DNA of 64,000 nt from Thermoplasmata archaeon. GTDB taxonomy: Archaea > Thermoplasmatota > Thermoplasmata > Halarchaeoplasmatales > Halarchaeoplasmataceae. The notes below the pieces were generated by a model. That model made no database searches. It was not told the DNA's origin and saw only the letters and a program-made list of their open reading frames with translations. Of the stretch, positions 11,824 through 58,283 are shown in pieces (within the stretch, counting starts at the first letter, position 1; each line of letters begins with the position of its first letter). Made by a program: the position numbers and the translations under genes. The stretch is taken from the NCBI GenBank assembly GCA_046498385.1, contig JAWOAU010000011.1, forward strand, positions 4,315-68,314, written 5' to 3'.

Positions 11824-11962
11824 TTTTGATACCCCCAAGGTAACACTACAGCAAGTCTTTCTAGAATATATAAACGTTGTGTGGTAATCACCATTTTCAG
11901 ATGGTAATCGCACTCGACAACATTTATATCGTGTACCGCACCTAAACCCTCTTTGAAATAAC

Positions 11963-41969: not shown

Positions 41970-41982
41970 ATCTATTCACCTT

Positions 41983-45249: not shown

Positions 45250-45453
45250 ATGGGAAAAGAAGACGAAGTAAAGATAGAAGAAGTAGGTAAAGGAGAAGAA
45301 ATAGGTGTAAAAGTAGCCGATTGGCTAGCTGAAAAGAACAGGATACCTGAAGGAGTGGTTGAAGGTACCGTTGAGGCGGTGACTGAAAAGGCCATCTTAG
45401 TCAACGACGATTGGATACCAAAAAGCCAGGTTGAAAAGGCTTGGCTACTGTAA
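45250..45453 (+). CDS. Small acidic hypothetical protein (67 aa)
   Basis: It sits in an otherwise empty intergenic region upstream of hdrA and has no recognised motifs. Confidence 0.3.
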   Translation: MGKEDEVKIEEVGKGEEIGVKVADWLAEKNRIPEGVVEGTVEAVTEKAILVNDDWIPKSQVEKAWLL

Positions 45454-45483
45454 TGGGCTGCTGTAATGATTTAATAAACGAAC

Positions 45484-45500
45484 CGAAGGTATTATAAACT
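45484..45500 (+). promoter_or_regulatory. Putative BRE/TATA promoter of the hdrA operon
   Basis: The sequence CGAAGGTATTATAAA lies about 50 nt upstream of the ATG. A GGTAGGT SD-like element lies 4 nt before the ATG. Confidence 0.35.
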
Positions 45501-45549
45501 ACTTGATGTTCCACCCTTCAGAATATCCATTGCCCGATGGTAGGTACAT

Positions 45550-48549
45550 ATGAAAAAAGATGTTTTAATAATCGGCGGCGGAATCTCTGGCGTTCAATCC
45601 GCACTTGACCTGGCCCAGAAGGGTTATGAGGTGGTGCTGGTTGATAAATCTCCTAGTATAGGTGGGAACATGGTGAAATTGGATAAGACTTTTCCTACTA
45701 ACGACTGTTCTATATGCATATCGGCTCCTAAGATGGTGGAAGCCAGCAGGAACGAGAATATTACATTACTGACTTACTCGGAGGTAAAGGAACTTATCGG
45801 CAACGCTGGTGGATTCAAGGTTAAAATCTGGAAGAGAACAAAGTACGTTGACCCCGAGGTCTGCACAGGATGCGGAGACTGCGAAGAGGTCTGTCCGGTG
45901 GAAGTACCGAGCGAGTTCGAGCAGAAATTGTCCGACAGAAAGGCGATTTACGTTGAATTCCCTCAATCGGTTCCCCTCACATACACCCTGGATTACGCAA
46001 ACTGCGTGGGCTGCGGCGCCTGCGAGCGGGTGTGCGATGCCGGGGCCATCAATTTCCTGGAAAACTCAAGGGAGATCGCGATAGAGGTTGGAAGCATAAT
46101 CGTGGCTACGGGTTACGAGATGATGCAGCCCGACGAGTGGAGGGAAGAGTACGGTTACGGTAAATATCCCAATGTGTTAACAGCCATGGAGTACGAGAGA
46201 TTGCTGTCCGCCTCAGGACCCACCGGCGGCAAGGTGCTGAAAAGAAGTGACGGAAAACCCCCGGAGTCGGTCGCGTGGATACAGTGCGTCGGCTCCAGGT
46301 GCAAGCAGAAGGGTATGCCCTACTGTTCAAGGGTATGCTGTATGTACGCTACCAAACAAGCGTCCATAAGCAAGGGAGAGAATCCGGAGCTTGATACTGC
46401 GGTTCACTACATTGATCTTAGGGCTTATGGCAAGGACTTCCAGCAGTACTTTGACAAGGCGAAAAAAGAGGGTGTCAACTATTTAAGGGGCAGGCCGTCT
46501 AGAGTTTACCAGACCGAGGATGGAAGGTTAGCAGTAGAATATGAGGATACTGAAAGGGGAGAAGTCACAACTAACGTCGTCGATATGGTAGTCTTGTCTG
46601 CAGCCATTATACCATCCTACGGAAACCAGAAGTTGGCGGAGATTTTGGATATAGAGTTAGACGAGAACGGTTTCTTCGAATCCAAGGATCTTCTCACTGC
46701 ACCTACGGATTCTACACGGGAAGGTATCTACCTAGCTGGATGTGCCCAAGCACCTAAGGATATTCCCGACAGTGTTGCACAGGCCAGCGGTGCAGCGGCA
46801 CAGGCGATGACCCCTATCAAGAACAGGAAAAGGAAAGGTGTACCAGAGAAAACTCCTGAAAAAGATGTAAGCGCCGAAGGACCGTGCATAGGCGTTATCG
46901 TTTGCGACTGCGGAAAGAATATAGCTAACTATATCGACGTTCCGGATGTAGTGGAGAGAATAAAGGATTGGCCGGGTGTTGTCCACGTTGAAGAGACCAT
47001 GTTCGCATGCTCTGAAGACTCGCAGACGAGAATCAAAGAGATGATCGAAGAAAAGAACCTGAACAGGCTGGTGATAGCGGCATGTTCGCCGACCACCCAC
47101 GGACCACTTTTCCAAGATACCTTGGAAGAAGCCGGATTGAACCGCTACCTTTTCGAGATGGCAAATATAAGAAATCAGTGCAGCTGGGTTCATAGTCATG
47201 ATGTCGAAAAAGCCACTGATAAAGCAGAGATCTTGACAGAGATGGCAGTCGAGAAGGTGAAGAATTTAAGTCCCTTGGAAGAGCAGACCATCGAGATCAG
47301 AGACCGGTCGATAATCATAGGGGGAGGTGTTGCGGGGATGCAAACTGCGCTGAGCCTTGCGGATTCCAGCATCAAAGTTACCTTGATAGAGAGGGAAGAA
47401 AAACTCGGGGGTAAATTGAACACGTTGAATACGCTTTTCCCAACCGATATCGATGCCCAGGAATTAGCTGACAAGCTTATACATCTCGTGGGGGACAGCG
47501 ATAATATCAGGGTGATGACAAATGCCAACATCGAAGCTATCGACGGGTACATAGGCAATTATGAAGTGCAGGTAGATGGAGAGACGATAGATGGGGACAC
47601 GATAATCCTAACCACTGGATTCCAGGAGATCGATCCAACTGATTTCTATCACTACGGTGATGACGACCGGATAATGACACAGCTGGAACTCGACCGGGCT
47701 CTTCAAAGGGACGAATTGAAAGACCCGAAAAATGTCGTTTTCATCAACTGTGTAGGTGCCATGGAAGAAGAAAGACCGTGGTGCTGTCGTGTAGGATGCG
47801 GGAACTCACTGAAGAACGCCAAAGCGATCAAAGAGAAATATCCAGATTCAAACGTTTACATCATGTACAAAGACATGAGGGTGTTCGGTAAAAGGGAAGA
47901 GGAGTACTACATGGACGTTTCAGAGAAGGACGGGGTCATCTTTCTTCGATACTCGACGGAGAATAAACCCGATGTCACTGTTGGAGAAGATCAGCTCGAC
48001 ATCAAAGTTTATGACAACCTTTTGGATGAGGACTTGGAGATAGATGCGGATTATCTTGTTCTCGCTATGCAACTCGAAGGTGACAAGAGCGCAAGAGAGC
48101 TCAAAAAGATGTTGAAGATCTCTTCTAATCCAGCGAACTTTTACATGGAGGCACACGCCAAACTAAGGCCTTTAGAATTCCCTGCCGAAGGTGTTTATCT
48201 GGCAGGTGGGGCACACTATCCAAAAAACATCTCGGATACTTTGGCTCAAGCCCTAGGAGCCGCTTCGAAGGCTTCGATCCCTATGATGAAGGGGTTCACT
48301 AAAAGTGAAGGCATAACTGCAGTCGTTGACGAAGACACCTGCATGGGATGCAGATTGTGTATAGATGTGTGCCCCTTCGGATCCATCGATTTCAACGAAG
48401 AAAAAGGTGTTGCAAAAGTTACTCCCGTTCTTTGTAAGGGGTGCGGGCTCTGTACTGCTACATGCCGTTCAGGTTCTATACAACAGAAGGGGTTTACGGA
48501 TAACCAGATACTTTCTATGATCAAAAATGCCACCAAAGGGGCGACTTAA
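45550..48549 (+). CDS. hdrA: Heterodisulfide reductase subunit A, a double-length (999 aa) form with two complete FAD-binding HdrA modules and ferredoxin-like domains
   Basis: The first module begins [24 protein letters not shown] and includes ...CxxCxxCxxxCP. The second begins at about residue 590 with [19 protein letters not shown]...GGKL, followed by [12 protein letters not shown] and [11 protein letters not shown]. Confidence 0.9.
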
Positions 48550-48550
48550 T

Positions 48551-48991
48551 ATGGGGGATGAAAATAAAATAGGAAATTGGGACCCGGTCATCGTCGGTTT
48601 CTGCTGTAACTGGTGCAGTTACGCCGGTGCAGATCTCGCAGGAACATCTAGAGAGCAGTACCCACCGAATATCAGGGTTATCAAGGTCATGTGCTCGGGC
48701 AGGATAAGTCCGGAATTTATTTTGAAGACGTTCCAGGAAGGGGCAGACGGCGTGCTGGTTTCTGGCTGCCATCCGGGAGATTGCCACTACATAGAAGGGA
48801 ATTACTACACTCGAAGAAGGCTGACCATCCTTTGGGATTTCCTAGATTACATGGGTATAGAACCAGAAAGACTTAAGCTATCATGGATATCGGCAGCCGA
48901 GGGCAAAAAATTCGCAAACGTTGTTGAGGAGTTCACTGACAAGGTGAGAGAACTAGGACCGCAGAAAAAACTACGGAAAGGGGTAGAATGA
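48551..48991 (+). CDS. mvhD: MvhD/FlxD-like delta subunit ([2Fe-2S] electron-transfer partner of HdrA)
   Basis: The motifs [19 protein letters not shown] ... KVMCSGRI...[10 protein letters not shown] match MvhD. The protein is 146 aa. Confidence 0.85.
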
Positions 48992-49872
48992 CCAGAGATT
49001 ACGAAAAGATAGAAGAAGAGATAAAAGAACAGGCGAAGGAGTGGCTGGAAAACGACGACGTGAATTACCTTATAGGATATGAAAAGGGGTCCGACCCACT
49101 CATCGCGAGACCAGTCTTCATCAGAACTCCAGAAGATGCAGACAGGTTAGTATGGAATCAGGGATGCGTCAACAACCTCACGAGATTTTTGGTCGAGAAC
49201 ATAAGGAAAGAGAAGGACACCACAATCGGTATAGTCGTGAAACCGTGCGACTCCAAAGCGATCGTCGAACTGATCAAGGAGAACGTTCTACCAAGAGAAA
49301 GAATGAAGATAATAGGCGTTACATGTGAAGGCATGATAGATAAGGACAAGGAAGAGGACGATACCTTGGCAGATAAGTGTCAGGTCTGTACAACTCATAA
49401 TCCAGTTATAGCCGATGTTGTCTTTGGCCCCGAAGTCGAGGAAGATTTTACAGATGAATATCAAGATATACAGGACATCGAAGAGATGGATGTTGAGGAG
49501 AGATGGGAGTACTGGGAAGATCAACTTTCCAAGTGCATACGCTGCTATGCGTGCAGAGACGTATGCCCAATGTGCTATTGTGAGGAATGTGTTTTCGAGC
49601 GTGAGAAACCACATCGATGGCTGGACAAGAGCGTTACGAAAGAAGATAATTTTTTCTACCACATGATAAGAGCGTTGCACCTTGCGGGTCGATGTATAGA
49701 CTGCGGTGAGTGCGAGAGGGTCTGTCCCATGGACATCCCTATAAGAAAGATGAACAGGATATTGGAGAAATGTGTGAAAAAGAGATTCGATTTGAAACCA
49801 GGTATGGATGTGGATGATAAAAGTCTGTTCGGTTCTTATGATAAAGATGATCCAGAGGAGGTCATTGTATAG
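48988..49872 (+). CDS. Iron-sulfur cluster-binding protein (FlxC/FrhB-like) with two 4Fe-4S ferredoxin motifs
   Basis: The motifs [16 protein letters not shown] and [12 protein letters not shown] are present. The protein is 294 aa and overlaps mvhD by ATGA. Confidence 0.6.
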
Positions 49873-49873
49873 G

Positions 49874-50917
49874 ATGAGTGATACAGTGAATTATGTCCTA
49901 AAAAAAGAGGATTTAACTGACTTCCTGAGTTCATTTTCAGATTATAAAGTTGTTCTGCCCGTAAAAAAGGACGGAGCAGTCAAGTTTAGAACGTACGATG
50001 GCGAAGGGCCTGATTTGGAAGTTGGGCCCACACAAAAATCATGCAAAGAAGTCTTCTTCCCACAGACGGAAAAGATGTTCGACTTTAAAAGAGAAAGGAA
50101 CAGATTCGTCGGGACGGAAGAAGTAAATTTTGAGCCTGAAAAAACCCTCCTATTTGGTGTAAGGCCCTGCGATGCCAGGGCGATGACACAATTGGACAAA
50201 GTTTTCGGAGAAGACTACAGGGATAACTACTATATGGATCGAAGGGAAAAAACAACTATCATCTCCGTAGGATGTGAAGAATCCGCTAAGAACTGTTTTT
50301 GTACATCCGTGGGTGGTGGACCTCATACCGAGGAGGGCTCTGATATGCTCTGGACAGACATAGGCGACAGCTACCATGTTGAGATTCTCACCGAGAAAGG
50401 TGAGGAGATAGTCAAGAACACCGAGGATTTCTTGGACAAGGCATCCAAGGAAGATGAAAAGAAATCGGAAAAAGTGAAGGAGGATGCGGTGGATAAGATA
50501 AATAGATCACTGGATACTGATGGCCTACAGGATGCCCTAGAAGACGTGTTCGAAAACGATTACTGGGAGCAGGTAGCAGATAGGTGCATAGGCTGCGGTA
50601 TCTGCACGCTATTGTGTCCTACTTGTTACTGCTTCGATATCAACGATATTATAGTTGGAGATAAGGGGTGGAGAGAACGCAACTGGGACTCTTGTCAATT
50701 CGATTATTATTCCATACACGCTTCGGGATACAACCCGAGACCCGAGAAAAAGCACAGGCTGAGAAACAGATTGTATCACAAGTACCTATATATGCCTAAG
50801 AATATCGACGTGATCGGCTGTGTTGGATGCGGGAGATGCATAACGAATTGTCCCACGGACATAGACATAATCGAGGTACTGGAACAGGTGGAGGAGGTGA
50901 GTAGCGATGGAAAATGA
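49874..50917 (+). CDS. AsrA/HydB-like 4Fe-4S subunit (sulfhydrogenase-beta / anaerobic sulfite reductase A family)
   Basis: The motifs CIGCGICTLLCPTCYC and CVGCGRCITNCP are present. The track ORF starts at 49808. The likely start is MSDTVNY at 49874. Confidence 0.65.
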   Translation: MSDTVNYVLKKEDLTDFLSSFSDYKVVLPVKKDGAVKFRTYDGEGPDLEVGPTQKSCKEVFFPQTEKMFDFKRERNRFVGTEEVNFEPEKTLLFGVRPCDARAMTQLDKVFGEDYRDNYYMDRREKTTIISVGCEESAKNCFCTSVGGGPHTEEGSDMLWTDIGDSYHVEILTEKGEEIVKNTEDFLDKASKEDEKKSEKVKEDAVDKINRSLDTDGLQDALEDVFENDYWEQVADRCIGCGICTLLCPTCYCFDINDIIVGDKGWRERNWDSCQFDYYSIHASGYNPRPEKKHRLRNRLYHKYLYMPKNIDVIGCVGCGRCITNCPTDIDIIEVLEQVEEVSSDGK

Positions 50918-51854
50918 TTCACCATACAGACCATTCACCGCAACACTCATAGATATCAGGTTGGAGTGCGGTGGAGAAAGACCCATAAGAACCTTTAGAT
51001 TGGAAATAGATGATGAAGAAGCAAAAGAAAATTTTGATTACAAGCCAGGTCAGTTCGTGATGGTTTCCGTGTTCGGAGAAGGAGAATCTCCATTCGCGCT
51101 GTCATCCCCCCCTACCGATGAGGTACTCGAGGTCACAGTGATGAGGGTTGGTAATGTGACAACTAGTCTCCATTCGTTGAACGTAGGAGACAAGGTAGGT
51201 ATTAGAGGGCCCTACGGAAATGGTTTCCCAGTGGGGGAATGGGAAGGTAAGAACTTGGTTTTCATCGGTGCAGGTATAGGTATAGCGCCCCTTCGCTCGG
51301 TATATGGTTATGTTCTCAGTGATGAACATCGGGACAAATTTGGAGATGTGAACCTTATTTACGGTGCCAGGAGCATAAACGATATGGCTTACAAGGACCA
51401 ACTAGAGGAGTTGGGCGGAAGAAACGACTTAGAGCTCTGGAGATGCATAGATTGGAACTTCGGTGAAGAAGGCATCATCAAAGAGTGTGCTGAAGAGGGA
51501 TGGGAACCGGTCGATCTAGATTATAAGGAAGAGACGAGGACTTGTTCACTCGATAACTGCTACACTGCGTTCGTTCCAGAGCTGGTGAGAATCGTAGAAC
51601 CGGATCCCGAGAACACCATAGCACTTACATGCGGTCCACCCATAGCTATCAAACTCACCCTAAAAGCCTTGATGGATTTGGGTTGGCAGCCTTCAAATGT
51701 TTACACTACTTTGGAGAACCGGATGAAATGCGGTATAGGTAAATGCGGCCGGTGCAACATAGGGAACAAGTACGTTTGTAAGGATGGGCCAGTCTTCAAT
51801 TATGAAGAGCTGATGGAGATGAAACCGGAGAACGAAGTCACCGAGGAGGCCTAG
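50907..51854 (+). CDS. AsrB/HydG/PyrK-like FAD- and NAD(P)H-binding subunit with a C-terminal 2Fe-2S
   Basis: The FAD/NAD ferredoxin-reductase fold is indicated by RTFRLEID...PGQFVMVS...GPYGNGF...VFIGAGIGIAP. The C-terminal cysteines are CGIGKCGRC...C. Confidence 0.7.
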   Translation: MENDSPYRPFTATLIDIRLECGGERPIRTFRLEIDDEEAKENFDYKPGQFVMVSVFGEGESPFALSSPPTDEVLEVTVMRVGNVTTSLHSLNVGDKVGIRGPYGNGFPVGEWEGKNLVFIGAGIGIAPLRSVYGYVLSDEHRDKFGDVNLIYGARSINDMAYKDQLEELGGRNDLELWRCIDWNFGEEGIIKECAEEGWEPVDLDYKEETRTCSLDNCYTAFVPELVRIVEPDPENTIALTCGPPIAIKLTLKALMDLGWQPSNVYTTLENRMKCGIGKCGRCNIGNKYVCKDGPVFNYEELMEMKPENEVTEEA

Positions 51855-51867
51855 GGGTTGAATTAAC

Positions 51868-52254
51868 ATGAAAGTGAAAAGAGATAAGGAATTTCTTGAT
51901 AAAGTAGAAGAACTGTCAGGACAGTCAGTCACTTCTTGTATCCGATGCGGGACTTGTTCTGCTGGATGTCCTTTTGTGGAGGAAATGGACGAACTACCAG
52001 AGAGAGTATTCGAAAGGATAATCCTCGGTGACAAAGAAGGGGTGTTGGAGAGGAACACCATGTGGATATGTGCAGCGTGCTTCCAGTGCAGCGTGAGATG
52101 CCCGAGGGATATCGATATCGCCAAGATCATGGAAGCAGTAAGACAGATCACGTTAAGAAAAAACATCGATAAAGTAGATTTAGATCATGTGGAAAATATG
52201 GCTGAACTACCGCAGCTCGCTGTAGTTGGCTGCTTCAGGAAGGAGACTGGATAA
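51868..52254 (+). CDS. hdrC: Heterodisulfide reductase subunit C-like (2x4Fe-4S)
   Basis: The motifs CIRCGTCSAGCP and CAACFQCSVRCP are present. The protein is 128 aa and lies immediately upstream of hdrB. Confidence 0.8.
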   Translation: MKVKRDKEFLDKVEELSGQSVTSCIRCGTCSAGCPFVEEMDELPERVFERIILGDKEGVLERNTMWICAACFQCSVRCPRDIDIAKIMEAVRQITLRKNIDKVDLDHVENMAELPQLAVVGCFRKETG

Positions 52255-52255
52255 C

Positions 52256-53110
52256 ATGGACGGGGATGCACTGTTGTACTATCCAGGATGTACGCTAAAG
52301 ACAAAGGCCAGCGATTACGAACAGAGCGCTATGGCGGTCATGGAAGCTCTGGGGAAACCGTTGGTCGAGATGGATAACTGGTACTGTTGTGGAGCCGTCC
52401 AATCGTTGACCACCGATGATATCATGCACCAGATCGCACCGATAAGAACAATGTGCTGTGCACAGGAACAGGGTGAGAAAGAAGTCATCACGCTGTGTGA
52501 TATGTGCTACAACGTTCTAAAACAGGCTAACGAGAGGATGAAGGATAAACCGGATGACCTGGAAACAATGAACGAGTTCCTGACCGAGGATTCGGATTAC
52601 GAAGGTAACGTAGATGTAAAACACCTTTTCCAGATATTGATCGATATGAAGGACGAGATCAAGAAGCGGGTTACCAAACCATTGGATAATCTAAAAGTGG
52701 CTACTTACTACGGCTGCATGCTGTTAAGACCGGACATTGTCGCCATCGACGGCCCTGAGAACCCGACTATCATGGGAGATCTGCTGGAGTGCACTGGTGC
52801 ACAGGTGATCAGAACCCCGAAGAGGACAGAATGCTGTGGATCGTATCACACGGTAAACAGGAGCGATATCGTTGAAAAGAGGGTGGAAGATATCGTGGGC
52901 AGGGCCGTGGAGGAGGGGGCAGAAGCCATCGTGCTTTCGTGCCCCTTGTGCCAGTTCAACCTTGACTTTCACCAAAGGGCTACCGAATACGAGATACCGG
53001 TCTTTTACCTGACCGAACTGATAACCCTCTCATTTGGATTGGATGTAGAGATGAAGAAACATAAGGTCGACCCGAAAAAATTACTAAAGGATAAGGATAT
53101 TTTGGAGTGA
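52256..53110 (+). CDS. hdrB: Heterodisulfide reductase subunit B-like (two CCG domains)
   Basis: The segments YYPGCTLKT...WYCCGA and YYGCMLLRP...ECCGS are present. The track ORF starts at 52226. Confidence 0.85.
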   Translation: MDGDALLYYPGCTLKTKASDYEQSAMAVMEALGKPLVEMDNWYCCGAVQSLTTDDIMHQIAPIRTMCCAQEQGEKEVITLCDMCYNVLKQANERMKDKPDDLETMNEFLTEDSDYEGNVDVKHLFQILIDMKDEIKKRVTKPLDNLKVATYYGCMLLRPDIVAIDGPENPTIMGDLLECTGAQVIRTPKRTECCGSYHTVNRSDIVEKRVEDIVGRAVEEGAEAIVLSCPLCQFNLDFHQRATEYEIPVFYLTELITLSFGLDVEMKKHKVDPKKLLKDKDILE

Positions 53111-53117
53111 GATTGGT

Positions 53118-53834
53118 ATGCCTGAAGATGAAGAGAAAGATAAAGAAGAGGAAGAAAATCTAATCGACATATACGTCATGGGTAAGAGGTACAAAGTACC
53201 CGAAGGACTCACTATCATGACTGCGCTCGAGTATGCAGGATACAAGTTCGTACGTGGATGTGGTTGCAGAGGAGGTTTCTGCGGAGCGTGTGCCACGGTC
53301 TACAGGAGTAAGGACGAGTACAAGTTGAAGATGGATTTAGCGTGTCAAACGGCAGTCGAGGAGGGAATGTTCTTGGTGCAGCTACCCTTCGTTCCTGGTG
53401 TCAGGGAAGAATATGACATCGATGAAGTGAATCCTGAGAAAAGGGACAACGTGATGTTGGAGTACTATCCTGAGATCGCCAGGTGCGTATCCTGCAATAC
53501 CTGCACAAAATCTTGTCCACAAGATATCGAAGTGATGGATTACGTACAGGCAGCGCTACGAGGGGATATCGAAAGATGTGCAGATCTATCGTTCGATTGT
53601 ATCCAATGCGGTTTATGCTCTATAAGATGTCCCGCAGATATCAAACATTATCATCTCGCACAGCTTGCTAGGAGGATAACTGGCAAGTATATTGACAAGG
53701 ACAGTGAAGAACTTGAGAAGAGGGTTAAAGAGATCGAGGAAGGAAAGTTCGATAAAGATTTCGAAAAATTGGTCAACATGAGCGAAGAGGAGTTGAAGAA
53801 AGCCTATGACGAGAGAAAATTCGAAAAGGAGTGA
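53118..53834 (+). CDS. Succinate dehydrogenase / fumarate reductase iron-sulfur subunit (SdhB/TfrB-like; 2Fe-2S plus 4Fe-4S/3Fe-4S)
   Basis: The 2Fe-2S segment is RGCGCRGGFCGACA. The motifs CVSCNTCTKSCP and CIQCGLCSIRCP are also present. Confidence 0.75.
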   Translation: MPEDEEKDKEEEENLIDIYVMGKRYKVPEGLTIMTALEYAGYKFVRGCGCRGGFCGACATVYRSKDEYKLKMDLACQTAVEEGMFLVQLPFVPGVREEYDIDEVNPEKRDNVMLEYYPEIARCVSCNTCTKSCPQDIEVMDYVQAALRGDIERCADLSFDCIQCGLCSIRCPADIKHYHLAQLARRITGKYIDKDSEELEKRVKEIEEGKFDKDFEKLVNMSEEELKKAYDERKFEKE

Positions 53835-55492
53835 TCACGATGGCTGACGGTTATCCAGAATATATGAGAAAATCCATTGAAAAAGTAGAAAAAACGAGAC
53901 CTGATAGGATCGGTAAGACCTTCGAAAGGATGTCAGCTGAACAGGCTGATGAGACGCTTCATAACTTCCATCCCGATTATAGAGAAGGTGGAAAAAGAGA
54001 AATTAAAATAGGGCCCAGTAAGGGTGAGATCGGTCCGACAGAACTTGTAGATCTCCTGGAGGCTCACAGCCTCATCGCCCCTTCTGATATAGATCTGTCA
54101 CAGGTAGATCACGATGTCGATATACTGGTCATCGGAGGCGGGGGTGCAGGTACAGTTTCAGCTCTCTGGGCTGTAAAAGAAGGCATCAAACCGGAGAATA
54201 TACTAATATCTACAAAACTCAGACACGGTGATGCAAACAGCATGATGGCACAAGGAGGGATTCAAGCTGCTGATAAGAAAGATGATTCACCTGTACAGCA
54301 TTACTTAGATGCCATGGGAGGAGGGCACTACACGAACAAACCCGAACTAGTAAAGATACTGACCAGAGATGCACCGAAGATAATCCACTGGCACGAAGAA
54401 CTTGGAGTGATGTACGATAGGGACGAAGATGGTAATTTTATCGAATTGCCCGGTGGTGGAACATCTAGGTACAGATTACACTCTGCTAGAGATTATACCG
54501 GTCTTGAACTGATGAGGGTCATCAGGGATGAAGCTAGGAATTTAGAGATTCCTGTATTGGAGTTCACCCCAGCGGTAGAACTCCTTAAGGATGATAAAGG
54601 TCAGGTGGCCGGTGCGATCCTGATGAATTTGGAGACCAATGAATACTACGTCGTCAAAGCAAAGTCAACAGTTATGGCAACTGGTGGTTTCGGTAGACTG
54701 CACATACAATCATATCCTACGACAAACCATTATGGCGCCACCGGAGATGGTCTCATAATGGGCTACAAAGCTGGCATCCCCTTGAGAGATATGGACAGCG
54801 TTCAATATCATCCAACTGGTGCAGCTTATCCAGACCAGATAGTAGGGCTTCTTGTTACAGAAAAGGTTAGAAGTCTAGGTGGTCAACCAGTGAATAAACA
54901 CGGAGAACTGTTCGTGAATCCTCTCGAACCTAGGGATATCGAAGCATCTGCACTTATCAGGGAATGCTACGGAAGAGATAACGGTGTAACAACACCTACG
55001 GGGATGAAAGGTGTCTGGCTTGATGCTCCGTTGATAGATGAGATCAAGGGTGAAGGAACGGTAGCTGAAAGGCTCCCCGCTATGGTAAGACAGTATGAGA
55101 GGTTCGGAATCGACATGACAAAGGATCCAATATTGGTATTTCCCACACTTCACTATCAAAACGGCGGTTTAGTGATCGATACAAACGCATCTACACCTGT
55201 ACCAGGATTGTTTGCTGGTGGTGAGGTAGAAGGTGGTGTCCACGGGAAGAACAGACTGATGGGTAATTCTCTGTTGGACTACAGCGTATTCGGTAGGATA
55301 GCAGGTATCAGTGCTGCTAAGCACGTTAAGAAAGCAAAGATTGGTAAGCTGAGCCTCCAACACATAACGGATTACGAAAAAGAGATGGAGAAGAACGGGA
55401 TAAAAACGGATAGAGAATCGCCTATGCTTCTGCCGGAGTACAGAGGTAAGAGAGTATTAGAAAGGCACCTCGATGTAGAGGTGACCCTGTAG
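53831..55492 (+). CDS. Fumarate reductase / succinate dehydrogenase flavoprotein subunit (SdhA/TfrA-like)
   Basis: The dinucleotide fold is DILVIGGGGAGTVSALWA. The covalent/FAD region QGGIQAA and the conserved HYQNGG are present. The protein is 553 aa. Confidence 0.85.
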   Translation: MITMADGYPEYMRKSIEKVEKTRPDRIGKTFERMSAEQADETLHNFHPDYREGGKREIKIGPSKGEIGPTELVDLLEAHSLIAPSDIDLSQVDHDVDILVIGGGGAGTVSALWAVKEGIKPENILISTKLRHGDANSMMAQGGIQAADKKDDSPVQHYLDAMGGGHYTNKPELVKILTRDAPKIIHWHEELGVMYDRDEDGNFIELPGGGTSRYRLHSARDYTGLELMRVIRDEARNLEIPVLEFTPAVELLKDDKGQVAGAILMNLETNEYYVVKAKSTVMATGGFGRLHIQSYPTTNHYGATGDGLIMGYKAGIPLRDMDSVQYHPTGAAYPDQIVGLLVTEKVRSLGGQPVNKHGELFVNPLEPRDIEASALIRECYGRDNGVTTPTGMKGVWLDAPLIDEIKGEGTVAERLPAMVRQYERFGIDMTKDPILVFPTLHYQNGGLVIDTNASTPVPGLFAGGEVEGGVHGKNRLMGNSLLDYSVFGRIAGISAAKHVKKAKIGKLSLQHITDYEKEMEKNGIKTDRESPMLLPEYRGKRVLERHLDVEVTL

Positions 55493-55494
55493 GG

Positions 55495-55713
55495 TTGACA
55501 CTGATGATAGAAGTAAATGAGGATTACTGTAAAGGATGCAACCTGTGCATATTGTTCTGCCCTAGGGATGCACTCGAGGAGAGTGAAGAATTGAACAAAA
55601 AAGGAGTTCATCAACCAGTGGAGATAGAAGGTAGATGCAACAACTGCAGATTGTGTGAATTGATATGTCCGGACTTTGCTATTACGGTTGTTGAGGATGA
55701 AGAAGATGAATGA
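55495..55713 (+). CDS. 2-oxoacid:ferredoxin oxidoreductase delta subunit (ferredoxin-like), second OFOR locus
   Basis: The motifs CKGCNLCILFCP and CNNCRLCELICP are present. The protein is 72 aa. Confidence 0.75.
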   Translation: MTLMIEVNEDYCKGCNLCILFCPRDALEESEELNKKGVHQPVEIEGRCNNCRLCELICPDFAITVVEDEEDE

Positions 55714-56869
55714 AGAAGATTTCGACTTAGAGAAGGTAAAAAAGGTATTGGGTGCCAAGCAGCAGTTCATCCACGGCGATGCAGCCGTTTGCTACGGTGC
55801 ACTATTGGCGGGGTGCACTTTCTTCGGCGGATATCCCATAACACCGGCTTCTGAGATAGCCGAGATGATGTCAAGACTGCTACCCAAGGTCAGTGGTAGA
55901 TATATCCAGATGGAGGACGAGTTGGCGAGTATGGCATCGATCATCGGATCTTCGTGGACAGGTGCCAAAGCCATGACTGCAACCAGTGGACCCGGTTTTT
56001 CCCTTATGCAGGAGAATATAGGTTTCGCTGCTATGAGTGAAACACCAGTTGTTGTTGCTAATGTTCAAAGATCGGGGCCGTCTACAGGTCAGCCTACGTT
56101 GGGGGCACAGGGAGATGTCATGCAGGGCAGGTACGGCTCTCACGGTGATTATCATCCCATAGTTTTATCTCCTAACACTATCCAAGAGACCGTAGAATTA
56201 ACGATCAGAAGTTTCAATCTTGCAGAGGAGTACAGGACACCTGTTTTCTTGTTCATTAGTGCCGATTTGGGCCACATGAGAGAGATGATAGAGATACCAG
56301 ATGAAGTAGACCTATTTTACAGGAAGGAACCTAAGGTCCGTCCGGATGAGTATATACCCTTCGGAGAAGGTAATTACGGTAAGAAGAAAGTCCCTGAATT
56401 CGCCCCGTTCGGCACAGGGTACAGAACTTACGTTACTGGTTTGACACACGATGAACACGGATTCCCTGCAACGGATGACCAAGAAGATCACGACAAGCTG
56501 ATTCGAAGACAGATGGAGAAGGTCACCGATGATAGGGAGATATTAACGGATATCGAAGAGAGAAACATCGATGATGCAGATATAGCTATACTATCATACG
56601 GTATAGCTAGCAGGAGTGCGTTAGGTGCGGTTAACAAAGCGAGGAGACAAGGCAACAAGGTGGGCTATTTTAGGCTTAAAACACTTTGGCCGTTCCCTAT
56701 AAAAGCTGTAGAAGAGCTTTCAACAAAAGTAGACAAGATAGTTGTTGCGGAGATGAATACAGGCATGCTGTATCATAAAGTCAACGAATACGCTGATTGC
56801 AAGGTCGTTCTTGCCAGTGAGATCGGTGGAGAACTACACAAACCCGACGAGATATTGGAGGTGATCTGA
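55706..56869 (+). CDS. 2-oxoacid:ferredoxin oxidoreductase alpha subunit (paralog 2)
   Basis: The motifs GDAAVCYGALLAGCTFFGGYPITPASEI...TSGPGFSLMQENIGFA are present. The track ORF starts at 55676. The chosen start is MNEEDFD, overlapping the delta stop. Confidence 0.88.
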   Translation: MNEEDFDLEKVKKVLGAKQQFIHGDAAVCYGALLAGCTFFGGYPITPASEIAEMMSRLLPKVSGRYIQMEDELASMASIIGSSWTGAKAMTATSGPGFSLMQENIGFAAMSETPVVVANVQRSGPSTGQPTLGAQGDVMQGRYGSHGDYHPIVLSPNTIQETVELTIRSFNLAEEYRTPVFLFISADLGHMREMIEIPDEVDLFYRKEPKVRPDEYIPFGEGNYGKKKVPEFAPFGTGYRTYVTGLTHDEHGFPATDDQEDHDKLIRRQMEKVTDDREILTDIEERNIDDADIAILSYGIASRSALGAVNKARRQGNKVGYFRLKTLWPFPIKAVEELSTKVDKIVVAEMNTGMLYHKVNEYADCKVVLASEIGGELHKPDEILEVI

Positions 56870-56871
56870 AG

Positions 56872-57744
56872 ATGGTTTCAGAGAATAAAACTAAGAACGT
56901 AGACGTAGCTAGCGGTGAAAAGATAAGGGAAAAATACCTGAGAAAGGAGATGATGCCGCATATATTCTGCAACGGATGCGGTCTAGGTAATGTACTGGAT
57001 TACACACTCTGGGCCATAGAAAAGGAAGGCCTCGATATGGATAACACGGTCTTCCTATCCGGCATCGGCTGCTCTTCCAGGATACCGGGCTATGTGAAAG
57101 TCGATGCACTTCACACGACTCACGGCAGAGCACTAGCATTTGCTACTGGGGTCAAAGTAACAAATCCAGAGCTGAGCGTAGTCGTTTTCACCGGCGATGG
57201 TGATTGCATCGGTATAGGTGGAAATCACTTCATCCACGCCGTTAGAAGAAATATCGATCTGACCGTTATAGTGGTCAACAATTTCATCTATGGGATGACT
57301 GGAGGACAGGTTGCTCCGACGACGCCCGAAGGAGATTATGCAACTACTGCACCTTACGGTTGTATCGAACCCCCATTCGATATAAGCAAGATGGCGATTG
57401 CAGCTGGGGCATCATACGTTGCTAGATGGCCTGTTAACCGACCTAATCAACCAATCAACTCTATACGTCAGGGGCTTCAGAATAAAGGGTTCAGCTTAAT
57501 CGAGATGCTTTCACCATGTACGACAGCATACGGAAGGCGTAACAAATTCAGAGAGATCAAGGACCTTTGGAATCACTACGAAGAGATAACTATACTTACT
57601 GAAGATTACGATATGATCATGAAGTATGGTAGTGAAGAAGAGAAGAAGGAGATCAAAGATAAGATAAAAATCGGGGTGCTGCACAACGAGAGTAAGATAT
57701 CTTTAGGTGAAAGGTACGAAGAACTATTGGAGAGATTTAAATGA
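56872..57744 (+). CDS. 2-oxoacid:ferredoxin oxidoreductase beta subunit (paralog 2, TPP-binding)
   Basis: The motifs FCNGCGLG...GIGCSSR...FTGDGDCIGIGGNHFIHAVRRN are present. Confidence 0.88.
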   Translation: MVSENKTKNVDVASGEKIREKYLRKEMMPHIFCNGCGLGNVLDYTLWAIEKEGLDMDNTVFLSGIGCSSRIPGYVKVDALHTTHGRALAFATGVKVTNPELSVVVFTGDGDCIGIGGNHFIHAVRRNIDLTVIVVNNFIYGMTGGQVAPTTPEGDYATTAPYGCIEPPFDISKMAIAAGASYVARWPVNRPNQPINSIRQGLQNKGFSLIEMLSPCTTAYGRRNKFREIKDLWNHYEEITILTEDYDMIMKYGSEEEKKEIKDKIKIGVLHNESKISLGERYEELLERFK

Positions 57745-58283
57745 GGAAGAATATACGATTGTGTGGAAGCGGTGGTCAGGGCATTATGACTGCAGGTTAT
57801 ATCCTTGGAAAAGCAGCATCGGTTTTCCATGACTACAATGCCGTACAGATGCAGAGCTATGGCCCAGAAGCGAGGGGAGGGGCGGCCCGTTCTGAAGTAG
57901 TTATATCCGACCGTGAGATCGGATACTGTGGATTACCTAGTACTGACAATATGATGGTGATGTCTCAACCCGCTTGGGACAAGTACCACAAGGACCTTAC
58001 AGAGGAATCTATCGTTGTATTGGACCCGGACCTAGTTGTCAATTATGATTTCGAAAATGTCATAGAGATTCCAGCCACCCAGATGGCTGAGGACCTGGGT
58101 AATAAGATCGTGGCAAATATTGTCATGATCGGCGGATTCAACGCTGTTACAAAGCTGGTTCCCGACGAGGCATTGGAGGAATCCGTCAAGGACAGCGTAC
58201 CCAAACAATTCACGGAATTGAACTTTAACGCCCTGAAGAGGGGAAGGGACTACGTTACCAGTCACCACACCAAGAAGGATTGA
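57741..58283 (+). CDS. 2-oxoacid:ferredoxin oxidoreductase gamma subunit (paralog 2)
   Basis: The motifs LCGSGGQGIMTAGYILGKAA...SYGPEARGG are present. Confidence 0.85.
   Translation: MRKNIRLCGSGGQGIMTAGYILGKAASVFHDYNAVQMQSYGPEARGGAARSEVVISDREIGYCGLPSTDNMMVMSQPAWDKYHKDLTEESIVVLDPDLVVNYDFENVIEIPATQMAEDLGNKIVANIVMIGGFNAVTKLVPDEALEESVKDSVPKQFTELNFNALKRGRDYVTSHHTKKD

What the first reader, a model, noticed from the sequence alone, without database searches (positions are those of the whole stretch)
45550..58283. A 13-gene redox supercluster: double HdrA, MvhD, a Flx-like NAD(P)H module, HdrCB, an SdhBA-like fumarate reductase and a four-subunit OFOR in one operon
All genes lie on one strand with overlaps or gaps of 15 nt or less. 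The order is hdrA (999 aa), mvhD, an FeS protein, AsrA/HydB-like, AsrB/HydG-like (FAD/NAD(P)H/2Fe-2S), hdrC, hdrB, SdhB-like, SdhA-like, then OFOR delta, alpha, beta, gamma. The content matches a FlxABCD-HdrABC-type NAD(P)H-dependent bifurcating complex, but here it is fused into one operon with a soluble fumarate reductase and a ferredoxin-reducing 2-oxoacid oxidoreductase. A plausible reading is a flavin-based bifurcating or confurcating NAD(P)H:fumarate/ferredoxin system. In it HdrBC-type CCG domains hand electrons to SdhAB, giving a thiol:fumarate-reductase-like enzyme split into four polypeptides. The OFOR would be the ferredoxin partner. I do not know of this exact gene combination as a characterised complex.
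Basis: partly seen in the sequence, partly recalled or inferred. Interest (0 to 1): 0.8.

Follow-up and report, generated by a model that had tools for sequence, protein, structure and literature searches.

The report
Hdr-linked soluble fumarate reductase operon
An archaeal 13-gene operon joins a heterodisulfide-reductase-type electron-splitting machine to a soluble fumarate reductase and a 2-oxoglutarate enzyme; the same gene set recurs in hundreds of uncultured archaea and bacteria, which suggests that fumarate is the missing acceptor for many 'orphan' Hdr complexes.

Summary
Thirteen same-strand ORFs (45550-58283) have gaps or overlaps of at most 13-23 nt and are bounded by opposite-strand genes. 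None has a membrane segment.

The FAD protein (g9) and its FeS partner (g8) form a distinct, highly conserved family, found in about 600 or more species genomes. In 80 sampled loci the pair is adjacent in 78. It sits on one strand with hdrCB, hdrA, mvhD and a four-subunit Kor-type OFOR, in shuffled orders. Other recurrent neighbours are fumarase, SucCD and malic enzyme.

The electron-input slot is swappable. The closest relative (89% identical) carries the hydrogenase genes MvhGA exactly where this window has the Flx-like NAD(P)H module.

g9 keeps all fumarate-site residues but has an invariant Asn at the covalent-FAD histidine position. Together with thermodynamics this favours fumarate reduction.

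Best model: NAD(P)H-driven bifurcation at HdrA, with one branch to fumarate and the other to ferredoxin or Kor.

This is not unprecedented. The same gene set was noted in tubeworm symbionts in 2019 and remains uncharacterised. The labels 'SdhAB' and 'thiol:fumarate reductase' do not fit.

The parts
45480..45549 (+). Likely promoter/5' region: TATTATAAA, an archaeal TATA-like box, about 55 nt upstream of the hdrA ATG
   Evidence: Read from the sequence. This is inference only. The sigma-70 scan is uninformative for an archaeon.
45550..48549 (+). Fused ('type II') HdrA, 999 aa. Module 1 is an FAD domain with an inserted 2x[4Fe-4S] ferredoxin domain; it keeps Cys53/Cys56 (= M. wolfeii Cys194/197). 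Module 2 has the N-terminal FeS domain, a divergent FAD domain lacking those Cys, and the C-terminal 2x[4Fe-4S] domain.
   Evidence: NCBIfam HdrA2 1055 bits. PDB alignments to 8rvu/5odc HdrA: res 5-375 to 154-524, 437-609 to 4-176, 848-994 to 508-652. Cys map. The pattern matches the fused HdrAs described in PMC9012536 and PMC12054007.
48527..48991 (+). MvhD/FlxD-like [2Fe-2S] electron-transfer protein (start may be 48551)
   Evidence: Pfam FlpD 193.7 bits; VhuD 137 bits
48988..49872 (+). FlxC-like FeS protein, 294 aa, two CxxCxxCxxxC motifs; distant paralog of the next gene
   Evidence: Pfam Fer4_8; no NCBIfam hit; Cys motifs; 24% identity to the HydB-like protein
49874..50917 (+). FlxB/HydB/AsrA-like FeS subunit (347 aa from the ATG at 49874)
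   Evidence: Fer4_22 111.9 bits; ShyB 196.9, HydB 182.7, AsrA 150.9 bits, all below cut-offs
50907..51854 (+). FlxA/HydG/AsrB-like FAD + NAD(P)H + [2Fe-2S] subunit: the predicted NAD(P)H entry point
   Evidence: FAD_binding_6, NAD_binding_1, DHODB_Fe-S_bind; PRK08345 251 bits, ShyC 215 bits
51868..52254 (+). HdrC-like 2x[4Fe-4S] subunit, 128 aa
   Evidence: Fer4_17/Fer4_8; HdrC TIGR03290 67 bits; two CxxCxxCxxxC motifs
52256..53110 (+). HdrB-like subunit, 284 aa, with two complete CCG motifs (C12, C44C45, C81, C84 / C154, C193C194, C229, C232)
   Evidence: Pfam CCG x2; SdhE 160 bits and HdrB 149 bits; PDB best hit is methanogen HdrB, 122 bits; Cys map
53118..53834 (+). FeS partner of the flavoprotein ('fes8'), 238 aa: one C-x4-C-x2-C...C [2Fe-2S] motif, two CxxCxxCxxxCP motifs, an acidic helical tail, and no CCG domain
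   Evidence: Fer2_4 + Fer4; TfrB only 35.7 bits against a cut-off of 385; no SdhB hit among PDB sequences; adjacent to the flavoprotein in 78/80 loci; conserved family with inconsistent annotation
53840..55492 (+). Soluble fumarate-reductase-type flavoprotein, 550 aa: conserved 90-aa N-terminal extension, FAD and capping domains, no C-terminal helical domain, non-covalent FAD (Asn133)
   Evidence: FAD_binding_2 only; TfrA 342 bits against cut-off 718, aligned to model positions 7-427 of 546; H324, T340, E341, R344, R365, H438, R472 invariant in 47 homologs; AF2 pLDDT 81 and Foldseek top hit E. coli FrdA 1kf6_A, E 8e-30
55504..55713 (+). Kor/OFOR delta subunit (2x[4Fe-4S])
   Evidence: OGOR_delta 74.6 bits; Cys motifs
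55697..56869 (+). Kor/OFOR alpha subunit
   Evidence: POR_N + PFOR_II; PRK08659 532.7 bits, above cut-off 411; 2-oxoglutarate synthase alpha 360.6 bits, below 579
56872..57744 (+). Kor/OFOR beta (TPP-binding) subunit
   Evidence: TPP_enzyme_C; best NCBIfam hit is 2-oxoglutarate Fd oxidoreductase beta, 274 bits, below cut-off 364
57741..58283 (+). Kor/OFOR gamma subunit
   Evidence: Pfam POR; PRK08537 198 bits, below cut-off 235

Best explanation
The operon encodes a soluble, modular, HdrABC/MvhD-type flavin-based electron-bifurcating system. Its high-potential acceptor is fumarate rather than a heterodisulfide.

Proposed path (inferred):
1. NAD(P)H is oxidised by the FlxA/HydG-like subunit.
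2. Electrons pass through the FlxB- and FlxC-like FeS proteins and MvhD to the FAD of the fused HdrA, where the pair is split.
3. The exergonic branch runs HdrA -> HdrC -> HdrB (CCG clusters acting as a relay) -> the 2Fe-2S/2x[4Fe-4S] protein -> the non-covalent FAD of the flavoprotein -> fumarate, giving succinate.
4. The endergonic branch leaves through HdrA's ferredoxin domain to ferredoxin, or directly to KorD.

One reduced ferredoxin is made per fumarate reduced. That is exactly what Kor needs to carboxylate one succinyl-CoA to 2-oxoglutarate, so the operon would cover the two reductive steps of the C4-to-C5 branch of the TCA cycle.

What is shown: gene content, cofactor motifs, an intact fumarate site, conserved linkage, and a swappable input module.
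What is inferred: physical assembly, electron path, direction, and the substrate of the OFOR.
For: 1. One tight operon of soluble proteins.

2. Linkage is conserved over very wide phylogenetic distance and despite rearrangement.
- The family was found at about 600 or more sites in one-genome-per-species contigs.
- fes8 and the flavoprotein are adjacent in 78/80 loci.
- With adequate flank, hdrB is present in 29/35, hdrA in 30/35, mvhD in 27/35 and korA in 22/35, all on the same strand.

3. The next most frequent neighbours are fumarate hydratase alpha/beta, SucC/SucD and malic enzyme. These are the enzymes that make fumarate and use succinate.

4. The input module is a swappable cassette.
- L081 (flavoprotein 89% identical, same downstream genes) has MvhG+MvhA exactly between mvhD and hdrC.
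- DNA similarity is lost only across window 48961-51867.
- Across loci, 9 are Flx-type, 9 Mvh-type and 10 have no recognised input module next to the core.
- Swapping donor modules on a constant core is the known behaviour of Hdr bifurcating complexes (PMC9012536).

5. The flavoprotein has the FrdA/SdhA fold. All substrate and catalytic residues are invariant.

6. Asn replaces the flavinylated His in all 47 homologs. From established Complex II biochemistry (own knowledge), non-covalent FAD enzymes reduce fumarate but do not oxidise succinate.

7. Only one CCG protein is encoded and fes8 has none. A free thiol shuttle would therefore have no oxidising site.

8. Thermodynamics from standard potentials (own knowledge: fumarate +33, NAD(P)H -320, H2 -414, Fd about -500 mV). 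The reaction 2 NAD(P)H + fumarate + Fd_ox is about -33 kJ/mol; with H2 it is about -70 kJ/mol.

9. Precedent: Moorella MetFV-HdrABC-MvhD uses the same fused HdrA type with a non-disulfide acceptor module.

10. The same gene set is co-expressed in Endoriftia, where the same hypothesis has been published.
Against: - No biochemical or structural data exist for any member (one search found nothing; still calls it a suggestion in 2026).
- HdrB keeps both complete CCG motifs of a true disulfide reductase. A thiol/disulfide substrate therefore cannot be excluded.
- 6 of 35 well-flanked loci have the fes8-flavoprotein pair with no Hdr or Kor nearby.
- In Endoriftia, tfrAB showed a different differential-expression pattern from the rest of the cluster.
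- Malic enzyme and Kor usually run oxidatively in peptide fermenters, which is the inferred lifestyle of many host lineages.
- The OFOR passes only a generic 2-oxoacid cut-off. Two different Kor-like subfamilies are found in the clusters.
- No sucCD or fumarase lies in this 64-kb window.
- MAG binning errors inflate the apparent taxonomic spread (e.g. L001).
Confidence: 0.55

Rival explanations
1. Reverse operation (electron confurcation). Kor oxidises 2-oxoglutarate, for example from glutamate, and makes reduced ferredoxin. That ferredoxin is combined 1:1 at HdrA with the high-potential electrons of succinate oxidation to make NAD(P)H (or H2 in the Mvh versions). This would let fermenters run 2-oxoglutarate -> succinate -> fumarate -> malate -> pyruvate.
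For: - Malic enzyme lies on the same strand in 13 loci. Fumarase and SucCD are also neighbours.
- Host lineages are mostly inferred peptide or amino-acid fermenters. The Culexarchaeia paper draws exactly this oxidative route through 'TfrA'.
- Asgard Mvh-Hdr is generally assumed to be confurcating.
- The 1:1 Fd:succinate stoichiometry fits this direction equally well.
Against: - Asn at the covalent-FAD position is invariant. Non-covalent FAD homologs are not competent succinate oxidisers (established knowledge).
- At standard potentials the reaction is about +33 kJ/mol towards NAD(P)H and about +70 kJ/mol towards H2 (own calculation). It would need H2 near 0.1 Pa or a very oxidised NAD pool.
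- In Endoriftia the cluster is part of a reductive TCA cycle.
Confidence: 0.15
2. There is no joint complex. A generic Flx-Hdr bifurcating enzyme reduces an unidentified disulfide (a small heterodisulfide or a DsrC-like protein) plus ferredoxin. The fumarate reductase and Kor are separate enzymes that are merely co-regulated because they consume those products. This is the indirect model of Rubin-Blum et al.
For: - HdrB has both intact CCG motifs and is closest to methanogen HdrB among solved structures.
- The indirect route is one of the two published models.
- tfrAB expression is partly uncoupled in Endoriftia.
- Some genomes keep fes8/flavoprotein without Hdr nearby.
Against: - fes8 has no CCG domain and there is no second CCG protein. 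The fumarate reductase therefore has no recognisable thiol-oxidising site.
- No DsrC-like or thiol-cofactor genes were among the recurrent neighbours.
- Linkage of hdrCB directly to fes8-flavoprotein is the most conserved adjacency after the pair itself.
Confidence: 0.15
3. The flavoprotein acts on a different substrate. Examples are L-aspartate (as NadB does) or another C4-C6 dicarboxylate such as mesaconate/methylsuccinate or tricarballylate. The OFOR would then use the matching 2-oxoacid.
For: - The protein is below the curated cut-off of every NCBIfam model. NadB models score 200-260 bits, not far below TfrA at 342.
- It has a unique conserved N-terminal extension and lacks the C-terminal domain.
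- The OFOR's specificity is not established.
Against: - Recurrent neighbours are fumarase and succinyl-CoA synthetase.
- Best sequence and fold matches are FrdA, SdhA, TfrA and Fcc3.
- The full set of fumarate-site residues is invariant.
Confidence: 0.05

Closest known systems
flxABCD-hdrABC / tfrAB / korABCD segment of the rTCA gene cluster in Ca. Endoriftia, the Escarpia symbiont and Thioflavicoccus mobilis (Rubin-Blum et al. 2019, PMC6315080; Mitchell et al. 2024, PMC11636981)
   Same: The same set of gene families lies on one strand, with kor interspersed with hdr. The published hypothesis is the same: a complex bifurcating NADH electrons to fumarate reductase and OGOR. It is still uncharacterised.
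   Different: - The host here is an archaeon (Thermoplasmata).
- No aclAB, pntAB, rnf or other rTCA genes lie in the window.
- HdrA is the fused 999-aa form.
- The gene order differs, with kor at the 3' end.
- I could not test whether the symbionts' TfrAB belongs to the same subfamily as g8/g9.
- The published name 'thiol:fumarate reductase' is not supported for the window's proteins.
MvhADG-HdrABC of hydrogenotrophic methanogens (structures 5odc, 8rvu)
   Same: HdrA module 1 is very close to methanogen HdrA (420 bits over 370 residues). HdrB, HdrC and MvhD are all present with complete cofactor motifs. The nearest relatives of this operon carry MvhAG.
   Different: There is no hydrogenase in this window. 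HdrA is fused and asymmetric. The host is not a methanogen. An FeS/FAD fumarate module is appended where CoM-S-S-CoB would be the acceptor.
FlxABCD-HdrABC NADH dehydrogenase/heterodisulfide reductase of Desulfovibrio (Ramos et al. 2015; cited)
   Same: Same subunit types: an NAD(P)H/FAD/2Fe-2S subunit, two FeS proteins, an MvhD-like protein and HdrABC.
   Different: The proposed acceptor in Desulfovibrio is DsrC and the operon is linked to alcohol dehydrogenase. Here the order is hdrA-flxDCBA-hdrCB, and it is linked to a fumarate reductase and Kor. Orthology to the Desulfovibrio proteins was not tested.
MetFV-HdrABC-MvhD complex of Moorella thermoacetica (as described in PMC9012536)
   Same: It is an Hdr/MvhD core with the same fused HdrA type, showing complementary loss of the N-domain and Cys197. 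It is coupled to a substrate-reducing flavoenzyme instead of a heterodisulfide.
   Different: The acceptor module is methylene-THF reductase, not a fumarate reductase. No OFOR is attached.
Thiol:fumarate reductase TfrAB of Methanothermobacter
   Same: TfrA is the best-scoring NCBIfam model for g9. Together, HdrB + HdrC + g8 + g9 contain the same cofactor types as TfrAB (CCG clusters, FeS chain, FAD).
   Different: g9 reaches 342 of the 718 bits required and lacks the C-terminal 120 model positions. g8 reaches 36 of 385 bits for TfrB and has no CCG domain. The proposed electron donor is HdrA, not CoM-SH/CoB-SH.
Type E succinate:quinone oxidoreductase / methylmenaquinol:fumarate reductase (SdhABE(F)) with a CCG-domain subunit
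   Same: A CCG protein partners an FeS/FAD fumarate-succinate enzyme. The window's HdrB scores best on the MFR SdhE model (160 bits).
   Different: The score is far below cut-off (500). There is no membrane or quinone link. The flavoprotein has no covalent FAD and no C-terminal domain. The FeS subunit is not an SdhB homolog by sequence.
Five-subunit soluble NADH-fumarate reductase FrdABCDE of Hydrogenobacter thermophilus (Miura et al. 2008, as summarised in PMC13147460)
   Same: It is a soluble, NADH-dependent, multi-subunit fumarate reductase serving a reductive TCA cycle.
   Different: It is not reported to bifurcate or to contain HdrA/MvhD. Its genes are dispersed. Subunit homology was not tested here.

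Membership tests
FlxABCD-HdrABC | HdrA flavoprotein with FAD and FeS domains | tested here: met
   HdrA2 model 1055 bits (cut-off 1100, an 'exception' model that includes fused MvhD); PDB HdrA E 7e-204
FlxABCD-HdrABC | HdrB with two complete CCG motifs, plus HdrC with two [4Fe-4S] motifs | tested here: met
   Pfam CCG x2 and Cys maps. Scores are below the NCBIfam equivalog cut-offs.
FlxABCD-HdrABC | FlxA (NAD(P)H/FAD/2Fe-2S), FlxB and FlxC (FeS) and FlxD (MvhD-like) encoded with hdrABC | tested here: met
   Domain architecture only. The subunit definitions come from my knowledge of Ramos et al. 2015. Orthology to the Desulfovibrio proteins was not tested.
FlxABCD-HdrABC | NADH-dependent reduction of ferredoxin plus a DsrC-type disulfide | not testable with these tools
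   This is an enzyme activity. No DsrC-like gene was seen in the operon.
Thiol:fumarate reductase TfrAB | TfrA equivalog, including the C-terminal Succ_DH_flav_C domain | tested here: not met
   NF004900 342 bits against cut-off 718; aligned to model positions 7-427 of 546; no PF02910 hit
Thiol:fumarate reductase TfrAB | TfrB: FeS domain fused to two CCG domains, the site of thiol oxidation | tested here: not met
   g8 scores 35.7 bits against cut-off 385 and has no CCG domain or CC[GAS] motif. The CCG domains are on the separate HdrB.
Fumarate reductase / succinate dehydrogenase flavoprotein superfamily | FAD and capping-domain fold with the His-Thr-Glu-Arg-Arg-His-Arg dicarboxylate site | tested here: met
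   H324, T340, E341, R344, R365, H438 and R472 are aligned to E. coli SdhA/FrdA residues and invariant in 47 homologs. Foldseek gives FrdA at E 8e-30, TM 0.63.
Membrane-bound Complex II (SdhABCD / FrdABCD) | Covalent 8-alpha-N3-histidyl FAD | tested here: not met
   Asn133 aligns with SdhA His45 / FrdA His44 and is invariant.
Membrane-bound Complex II (SdhABCD / FrdABCD) | SdhB-family FeS subunit and membrane anchor subunits | tested here: not met
   g8 has no SdhB model or PDB hit, although it has a three-cluster motif set. There is no TM segment in any of the 13 proteins and no anchor-like recurrent neighbour.
MvhADG-HdrABC | [NiFe] hydrogenase subunits MvhA and MvhG encoded with mvhD and hdrABC | tested here: not met
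   Both are absent from the window. They are present in the same slot in L081 and about 20 other loci, with VhuA 399 bits and VhuG 208 bits as best hits.
[quoted passage not shown] | Alpha, beta, gamma and delta subunits with POR_N/PFOR_II, TPP_enzyme_C, POR and 2x[4Fe-4S] domains | tested here: met
[quoted passage not shown] | 2-oxoglutarate specificity | tested here: inconclusive
   The best named hits are OGOR subunits, but all fall below OGOR cut-offs. Only the generic PRK08659 model passes. SucCD as a neighbour in 11-12 loci supports the assignment. A second Kor-like paralog complicates it.
Endoriftia-type flx-hdr-tfr-kor rTCA cluster | kor, 'tfr', flx and hdr genes interspersed on one strand | tested here: met
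   against the description
Endoriftia-type flx-hdr-tfr-kor rTCA cluster | Embedded among aclAB and other rTCA genes; orthology of TfrAB to g8/g9 | not tested
   No reference sequences were available. No ACL, aconitase or IDH genes were seen among the annotated window genes or the recurrent neighbours.

The most novel reading that the evidence does not exclude
A single ancient modular machine is spread across Asgard, Bathyarchaeia, Thermoplasmatota, Chloroflexota, Aminicenantes, WOR-3 and others. It uses fumarate as the 'heterodisulfide' of non-methanogens. It also docks Kor directly onto HdrA, so that the low-potential bifurcated electrons drive succinyl-CoA carboxylation without free ferredoxin. 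This would be a three-enzyme Hdr-Frd-Kor supercomplex performing both reductive steps of the C4-to-C5 TCA branch at 1:1 stoichiometry. The strict co-variation of HdrA form with Kor subfamily (6/6 and 25/25) would then reflect a physical HdrA-Kor interface.
Probability: 0.25. Interest if true: 0.85.

Novelty: new variant of a known kind. Interest (0 to 1): 0.62.

Why it matters
HdrABC/MvhD genes are common in non-methanogenic archaea and bacteria that make no CoM-S-S-CoB. Their acceptor has been an open question. Asgard reconstructions, for example, list Mvh-Hdr as 'heterodisulfide-dependent' and Flx as 'of unknown function'.

The conserved, rearrangement-resistant linkage found here points to fumarate as that acceptor for a large subset. 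It also yields a concrete, testable enzyme: an NAD(P)H- or H2-dependent, ferredoxin-reducing fumarate reductase. If confirmed, this would:
- add a new class of flavin-based electron bifurcation;
- explain how fermenters and autotrophs obtain the roughly -500 mV electrons needed for 2-oxoglutarate synthesis;
- correct widespread mis-annotation (SdhA, TfrA, HdrC, '4Fe-4S protein');
- change the energy budgets drawn for many uncultured lineages and for the reductive TCA cycle.

Tried and rejected
- The sigma-70 promoter and intrinsic-terminator scan across the operon is not applicable to an archaeon. Its counts are close to the shuffled expectation, so I did not use it.
- AlphaFold of the FeS partner g8 gave pLDDT 57. 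That is too poor for a fold search, so whether it has an SdhB-like fold is unresolved.
- An exact-sequence look-up of the window's own flavoprotein found no contig on record. I used the 89%-identical relative instead.
- I looked for architectures lacking HdrBC as evidence of direct HdrA-to-g8 wiring. In L077 the contig ends at hdrA. L069 turned out to have a fused HdrCB (HdrD-like) upstream. This was inconclusive.
- I searched for Rosetta-stone fusions. All top g8 and g9 homologs are stand-alone proteins of constant length.
- I could not verify that the gammaproteobacterial 'TfrAB' is the same subfamily.
- A literature search for a characterised 'bifurcating fumarate reductase' returned nothing.
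- I considered AprAB-like, TcuAB-like and NadB-like identities for g8/g9. I rejected them on best-hit ranking, active-site residues and neighbours.
- I considered a membrane-bound SQR and rejected it.

Full report
**1. Observation**

The window carries 13 ORFs on the + strand from 45550 to 58283. With the most plausible start codons, the junctions are overlaps of 4-23 nt or gaps of 1-13 nt. The operon is bracketed by opposite-strand genes:
- a PAP2 gene and riboflavin/FAD-synthesis genes upstream;
- a T2SS-F/E-like pair downstream, the first of which overlaps korG convergently.

A TATA-like TATTATAAA lies about 55 nt upstream of hdrA (inference). The context is archaeal: RadA, archaeal S4/S13 and an archaeal pilin. 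The flavoprotein is 100% identical to one from a Thermoplasmata MAG. None of the 13 products has a membrane-spanning segment.

**2. Gene content**

Pfam and NCBIfam give the following.

| Gene | Product |
|---|---|
| g1 | HdrA, 999 aa |
| g2 | MvhD/FlpD |
| g3 | FeS protein with two CxxCxxCxxxC motifs; no named family |
| g4 | HydB/ShyB/AsrA-like |
| g5 | HydG/ShyC/AsrB-like (FAD, NAD(P)H, 2Fe-2S) |
| g6 | HdrC-like |
| g7 | HdrB-like with two CCG domains |
| g8 | 2Fe-2S + 2x[4Fe-4S] protein |
| g9 | FAD_binding_2 flavoprotein |
| g10-13 | OFOR delta, alpha, beta, gamma; best named hits are 2-oxoglutarate enzymes |

Only the generic 2-oxoacid alpha-subunit model passes its curated cut-off. Every other protein is below the equivalog cut-offs. 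The names are therefore 'works like' labels, not memberships.

**3. HdrA anatomy**

I compared g1 with solved methanogen HdrA.
- Residues 5-375 match the FAD domain with its inserted ferredoxin domain (420 bits).
- Residues 437-609 match the canonical N-terminal FeS domain.
- Residues 848-994 match the end of the FAD domain plus the C-terminal ferredoxin domain.
- Residues 587-847 are a second, divergent FAD domain (GGGVAG at 591). It is only 26% identical to the first.

Module 1 keeps Cys53/Cys56, equivalent to M. wolfeii Cys194/197, but has no N-domain. Module 2 has the N-domain but has Ile/Gln at those positions. This is the complementary pattern described for fused HdrAs that mimic an asymmetric dimer. 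It is seen in ANME HdrA3/4 and in the Moorella MetFV-HdrABC-MvhD complex (PMC9012536), and is called 'type II HdrA' in PMC12054007. Most relatives of this cluster instead have a canonical HdrA of about 650 aa.

**4. The fumarate module**

g9 (550 aa) aligns with TfrA, SdhA, FrdA, NadB and Fcc3 over the FAD and capping domains only. It lacks the C-terminal helical domain and has a conserved 90-aa N-terminal extension.

Residue-level alignment to E. coli SdhA and FrdA, combined with a 47-sequence alignment (positions verified), shows two things.
- H324 (HPTG), T340/E341/R344, R365 (PRD, the proton donor), H438 and R472 are all invariant.
- The histidine that carries covalent FAD is an invariant Asn133.

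The AlphaFold model (pLDDT 81) finds E. coli FrdA first, followed by SdhA and flavocytochrome c3.

g8 has a C-x4-C-x2-C...C motif and two CxxCxxCxxxCP motifs, so it has the same number of clusters as SdhB. It shows no sequence match to SdhB, scores 36 bits on TfrB, and has no CCG domain. Public annotations for g8 homologs vary: '4Fe-4S protein', 'HdrC', 'SdhB-like' and 'NuoI'.

HdrB has both five-Cys CCG motifs intact. It scores about equally on HdrB and on the CCG subunit SdhE of methylmenaquinol:fumarate reductase.

**5. Comparative genomics (main new evidence)**

Of these, 597 were confirmed by tblastn. The 80 best loci (56-79% identical) come from a wide range of lineages.
- Archaea: Thermoplasmatota, Theionarchaea, Bathyarchaeia, Thor-, Heimdall- and Borrarchaeota, Culexarchaeia and Desulfurococcales.
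- Bacteria: Aminicenantes, WOR-3, Chloroflexota, Bipolaricaulota, Spirochaetota, Cloacimonadota, Fermentibacteria, Clostridia and others.

Mapping the 13 window proteins onto these loci gave the following.
- g8 and g9 are adjacent in 78/80.
- Among the 35 loci with at least 9 kb upstream and 5 kb downstream, hdrB is present in 29, hdrA in 30, mvhD in 27 and korA in 22. All are on the g9 strand.
- Gene orders differ, for example kor-hdrA-mvhD-X-hdrCB-g8-g9; g8-g9-kor-hdrA-hdrCB-X; hdrCB-kor-hdrA-mvhD-flxCBA-g8-g9.

Linkage that survives this much rearrangement and phylogenetic distance is strong evidence for a functional unit.

I clustered all other ORFs in the loci and scanned representatives. 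The most recurrent extra neighbours are:

| Neighbour | Loci |
|---|---|
| [NiFe] hydrogenase large subunit (Vhu/Mvh-type) | about 20 |
| [NiFe] hydrogenase small subunit (Vhu/Mvh-type) | 14-18 |
| Class I fumarate hydratase alpha/beta | 14 |
| Malic enzyme | 13 |
| Succinyl-CoA synthetase SucC/SucD | 11-12 |

These spell out malate-fumarate-succinate-succinyl-CoA-2-oxoglutarate. They support fumarate/succinate as the g9 substrate and 2-oxoglutarate as the OFOR substrate.

**6. Cassette swap**

The closest relative is L081, a Thermoplasmata MAG with g9 89% identical. It has the same operon and the same downstream genes. It carries MvhG (325 aa) and MvhA (487 aa) where the window has g3-g5, and a divergent fumarase pair upstream.

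blastn aligns window 45550-48960 with L081 at 70.6% and window 51868-58243 at 81%. There is no similarity across 48961-51867. The electron-input module is therefore a replaceable cassette in a fixed slot between mvhD and hdrC. Across the well-flanked loci, 9 are Flx-type, 9 are Mvh-type and 10 have no recognised input module beside the core. Exchangeable donor modules on a constant Hdr core are the known design of Hdr bifurcating enzymes.

**7. Two architecture classes**

The window holds a second Kor-like four-subunit OFOR at 21316-24096, with KorA 49% identical. In 31 of 41 cluster-linked KorA genes elsewhere, the protein is closer to that paralog ('type 2') than to the operon's own KorA ('type 1'). 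Type 1 occurs only with the fused HdrA (6/6). Type 2 occurs with canonical HdrA (25/25). This may reflect an HdrA-Kor interface or shared descent. The loci are not phylogenetically independent, so I treat the pattern as suggestive only.

**8. Mechanism and direction**

Shown:
- the cofactor inventory;
- the intact fumarate site;
- non-covalent FAD;
- solubility of all products;
- one CCG protein only;
- conserved linkage;
- swappable donor modules.

Inferred path:
1. NAD(P)H enters at g5.
2. Electrons pass through g4, g3 and MvhD to the HdrA FAD, where they bifurcate.
3. The high-potential branch runs HdrC -> HdrB -> g8 -> g9 FAD -> fumarate.
4. The low-potential branch goes to ferredoxin or KorD.

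I calculated energetics from standard potentials (own knowledge: fumarate/succinate +33 mV, NAD(P)H -320, H2 -414, Fd about -500, CoM-S-S-CoB about -140). The forward reaction is about -33 kJ/mol with NAD(P)H and about -70 kJ/mol with H2. The reverse confurcation is correspondingly endergonic.

Non-covalent FAD in this superfamily supports fumarate reduction but not succinate oxidation (established Complex II biochemistry). Both points favour the reductive direction.

One reduced ferredoxin per fumarate matches the need of Kor for one succinyl-CoA carboxylation. Malic enzyme and fumarase as neighbours also fit a malate-dismutation-like supply of NAD(P)H and fumarate (inference).

**9. Evidence against and limits**

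- No member has been characterised.
- HdrB retains a complete disulfide-reductase-type site.
- 6/35 loci have g8-g9 alone.
- Endoriftia tfrAB was differentially expressed differently from the rest of the cluster.
- Many hosts are inferred fermenters, in which Kor and malic enzyme usually run oxidatively.
- OFOR specificity is unproven.
- MAG mis-binning exists. L001, labelled 'Spirochaetaceae', is 76-82% identical to the Thermoplasmata cluster.

**10. Comparison with the literature**

- Rubin-Blum, Dubilier and Kleiner (2019, PMC6315080, main text and Text S1 Note 3) described korABCD and 'tfrAB' interspersed with flxABCD-hdrABC. They found this in tubeworm symbionts, Thioflavicoccus mobilis and one aquifer MAG. 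[quoted passage not shown]
- Mitchell et al. (2024, PMC11636981) showed co-expression in Endoriftia.
- A 2026 survey still treats it as a suggestion and says other rTCA bacteria lack it (PMC13147460).
- MAG papers on Culexarchaeia, WOR-3, Cloacimonadota and Asgard archaea annotate the parts separately.

What this analysis adds:
- the breadth of the family, with hundreds of species including Asgard and other archaea;
- the input-cassette swap;
- the finding that g8/g9 are neither Tfr nor Sdh by their defining features;
- the non-covalent-FAD and single-CCG arguments for direct wiring and for direction;
- the HdrA-form / Kor-type co-variation.

**11. Verdict**

- It is best classed as a new (archaeal, fused-HdrA, NAD(P)H-input) variant of a previously noticed but uncharacterised Hdr-fumarate reductase-Kor gene cluster.
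- Interest is moderately high because it offers a testable answer to what many non-methanogen Hdr complexes reduce.

Noticed in passing
window 21316-24096 (+): This is a second four-subunit Kor-like OFOR (delta, alpha, beta, gamma), with KorA 49% identical to the operon's. It lies between ribosomal protein genes and a PRPP synthetase gene. Most cluster-linked Kor enzymes in other lineages resemble this paralog more than the operon's own Kor.
   Followed up: partly
window 34682-36826 (+): This gene encodes HypF, the [NiFe]-hydrogenase maturation carbamoyltransferase. The organism therefore probably has a [NiFe] hydrogenase elsewhere, even though this operon carries the NAD(P)H module instead of MvhAG.
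   Followed up: no
window 41568-43593 (-): Riboflavin and FAD biosynthesis genes lie just upstream of this flavin-rich operon: two lumazine/riboflavin synthase-like genes, a cytidylyltransferase-like FAD synthetase and DHBP synthase. This may be coincidence.
   Followed up: no
window 5368-11994 (-): This ORF encodes a 2208-aa protein with an archaeal type IV pilin N-terminus plus CARDB, VWA and MAM-like domains. It is a giant surface or adhesion protein.
   Followed up: no
window 45250-45453 (+): This 67-aa acidic ORF lies 96 nt upstream of hdrA on the same strand. It has no Pfam match and is not conserved upstream of hdrA in the closest relative L081.
   Followed up: partly
L001 (PWGF01000061.1, 5.8 kb, labelled Spirochaetaceae): The proteins on this contig are 72-82% identical to the Thermoplasmata cluster, and the gene order is the same. 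The contig is probably mis-binned, so taxonomic labels of short MAG contigs need caution.
   Followed up: no
L069 5239-7422 (+): An N6-adenine DNA methylase (Eco57I-like) ORF sits inside the cluster between hdrA and mvhD in an Anaerolineae MAG. The same locus has a fused HdrC-HdrB (HdrD-like, 376 aa) and two further fused HdrA-MvhD pairs downstream.
   Followed up: partly
window 45550-48960 vs 51868-58243 compared with L081: hdrA and mvhD are more diverged from the closest relative (70.6% nt) than hdrC through korG (81% nt). HdrA and MvhD may have been exchanged or may co-evolve with the input cassette.
   Followed up: no
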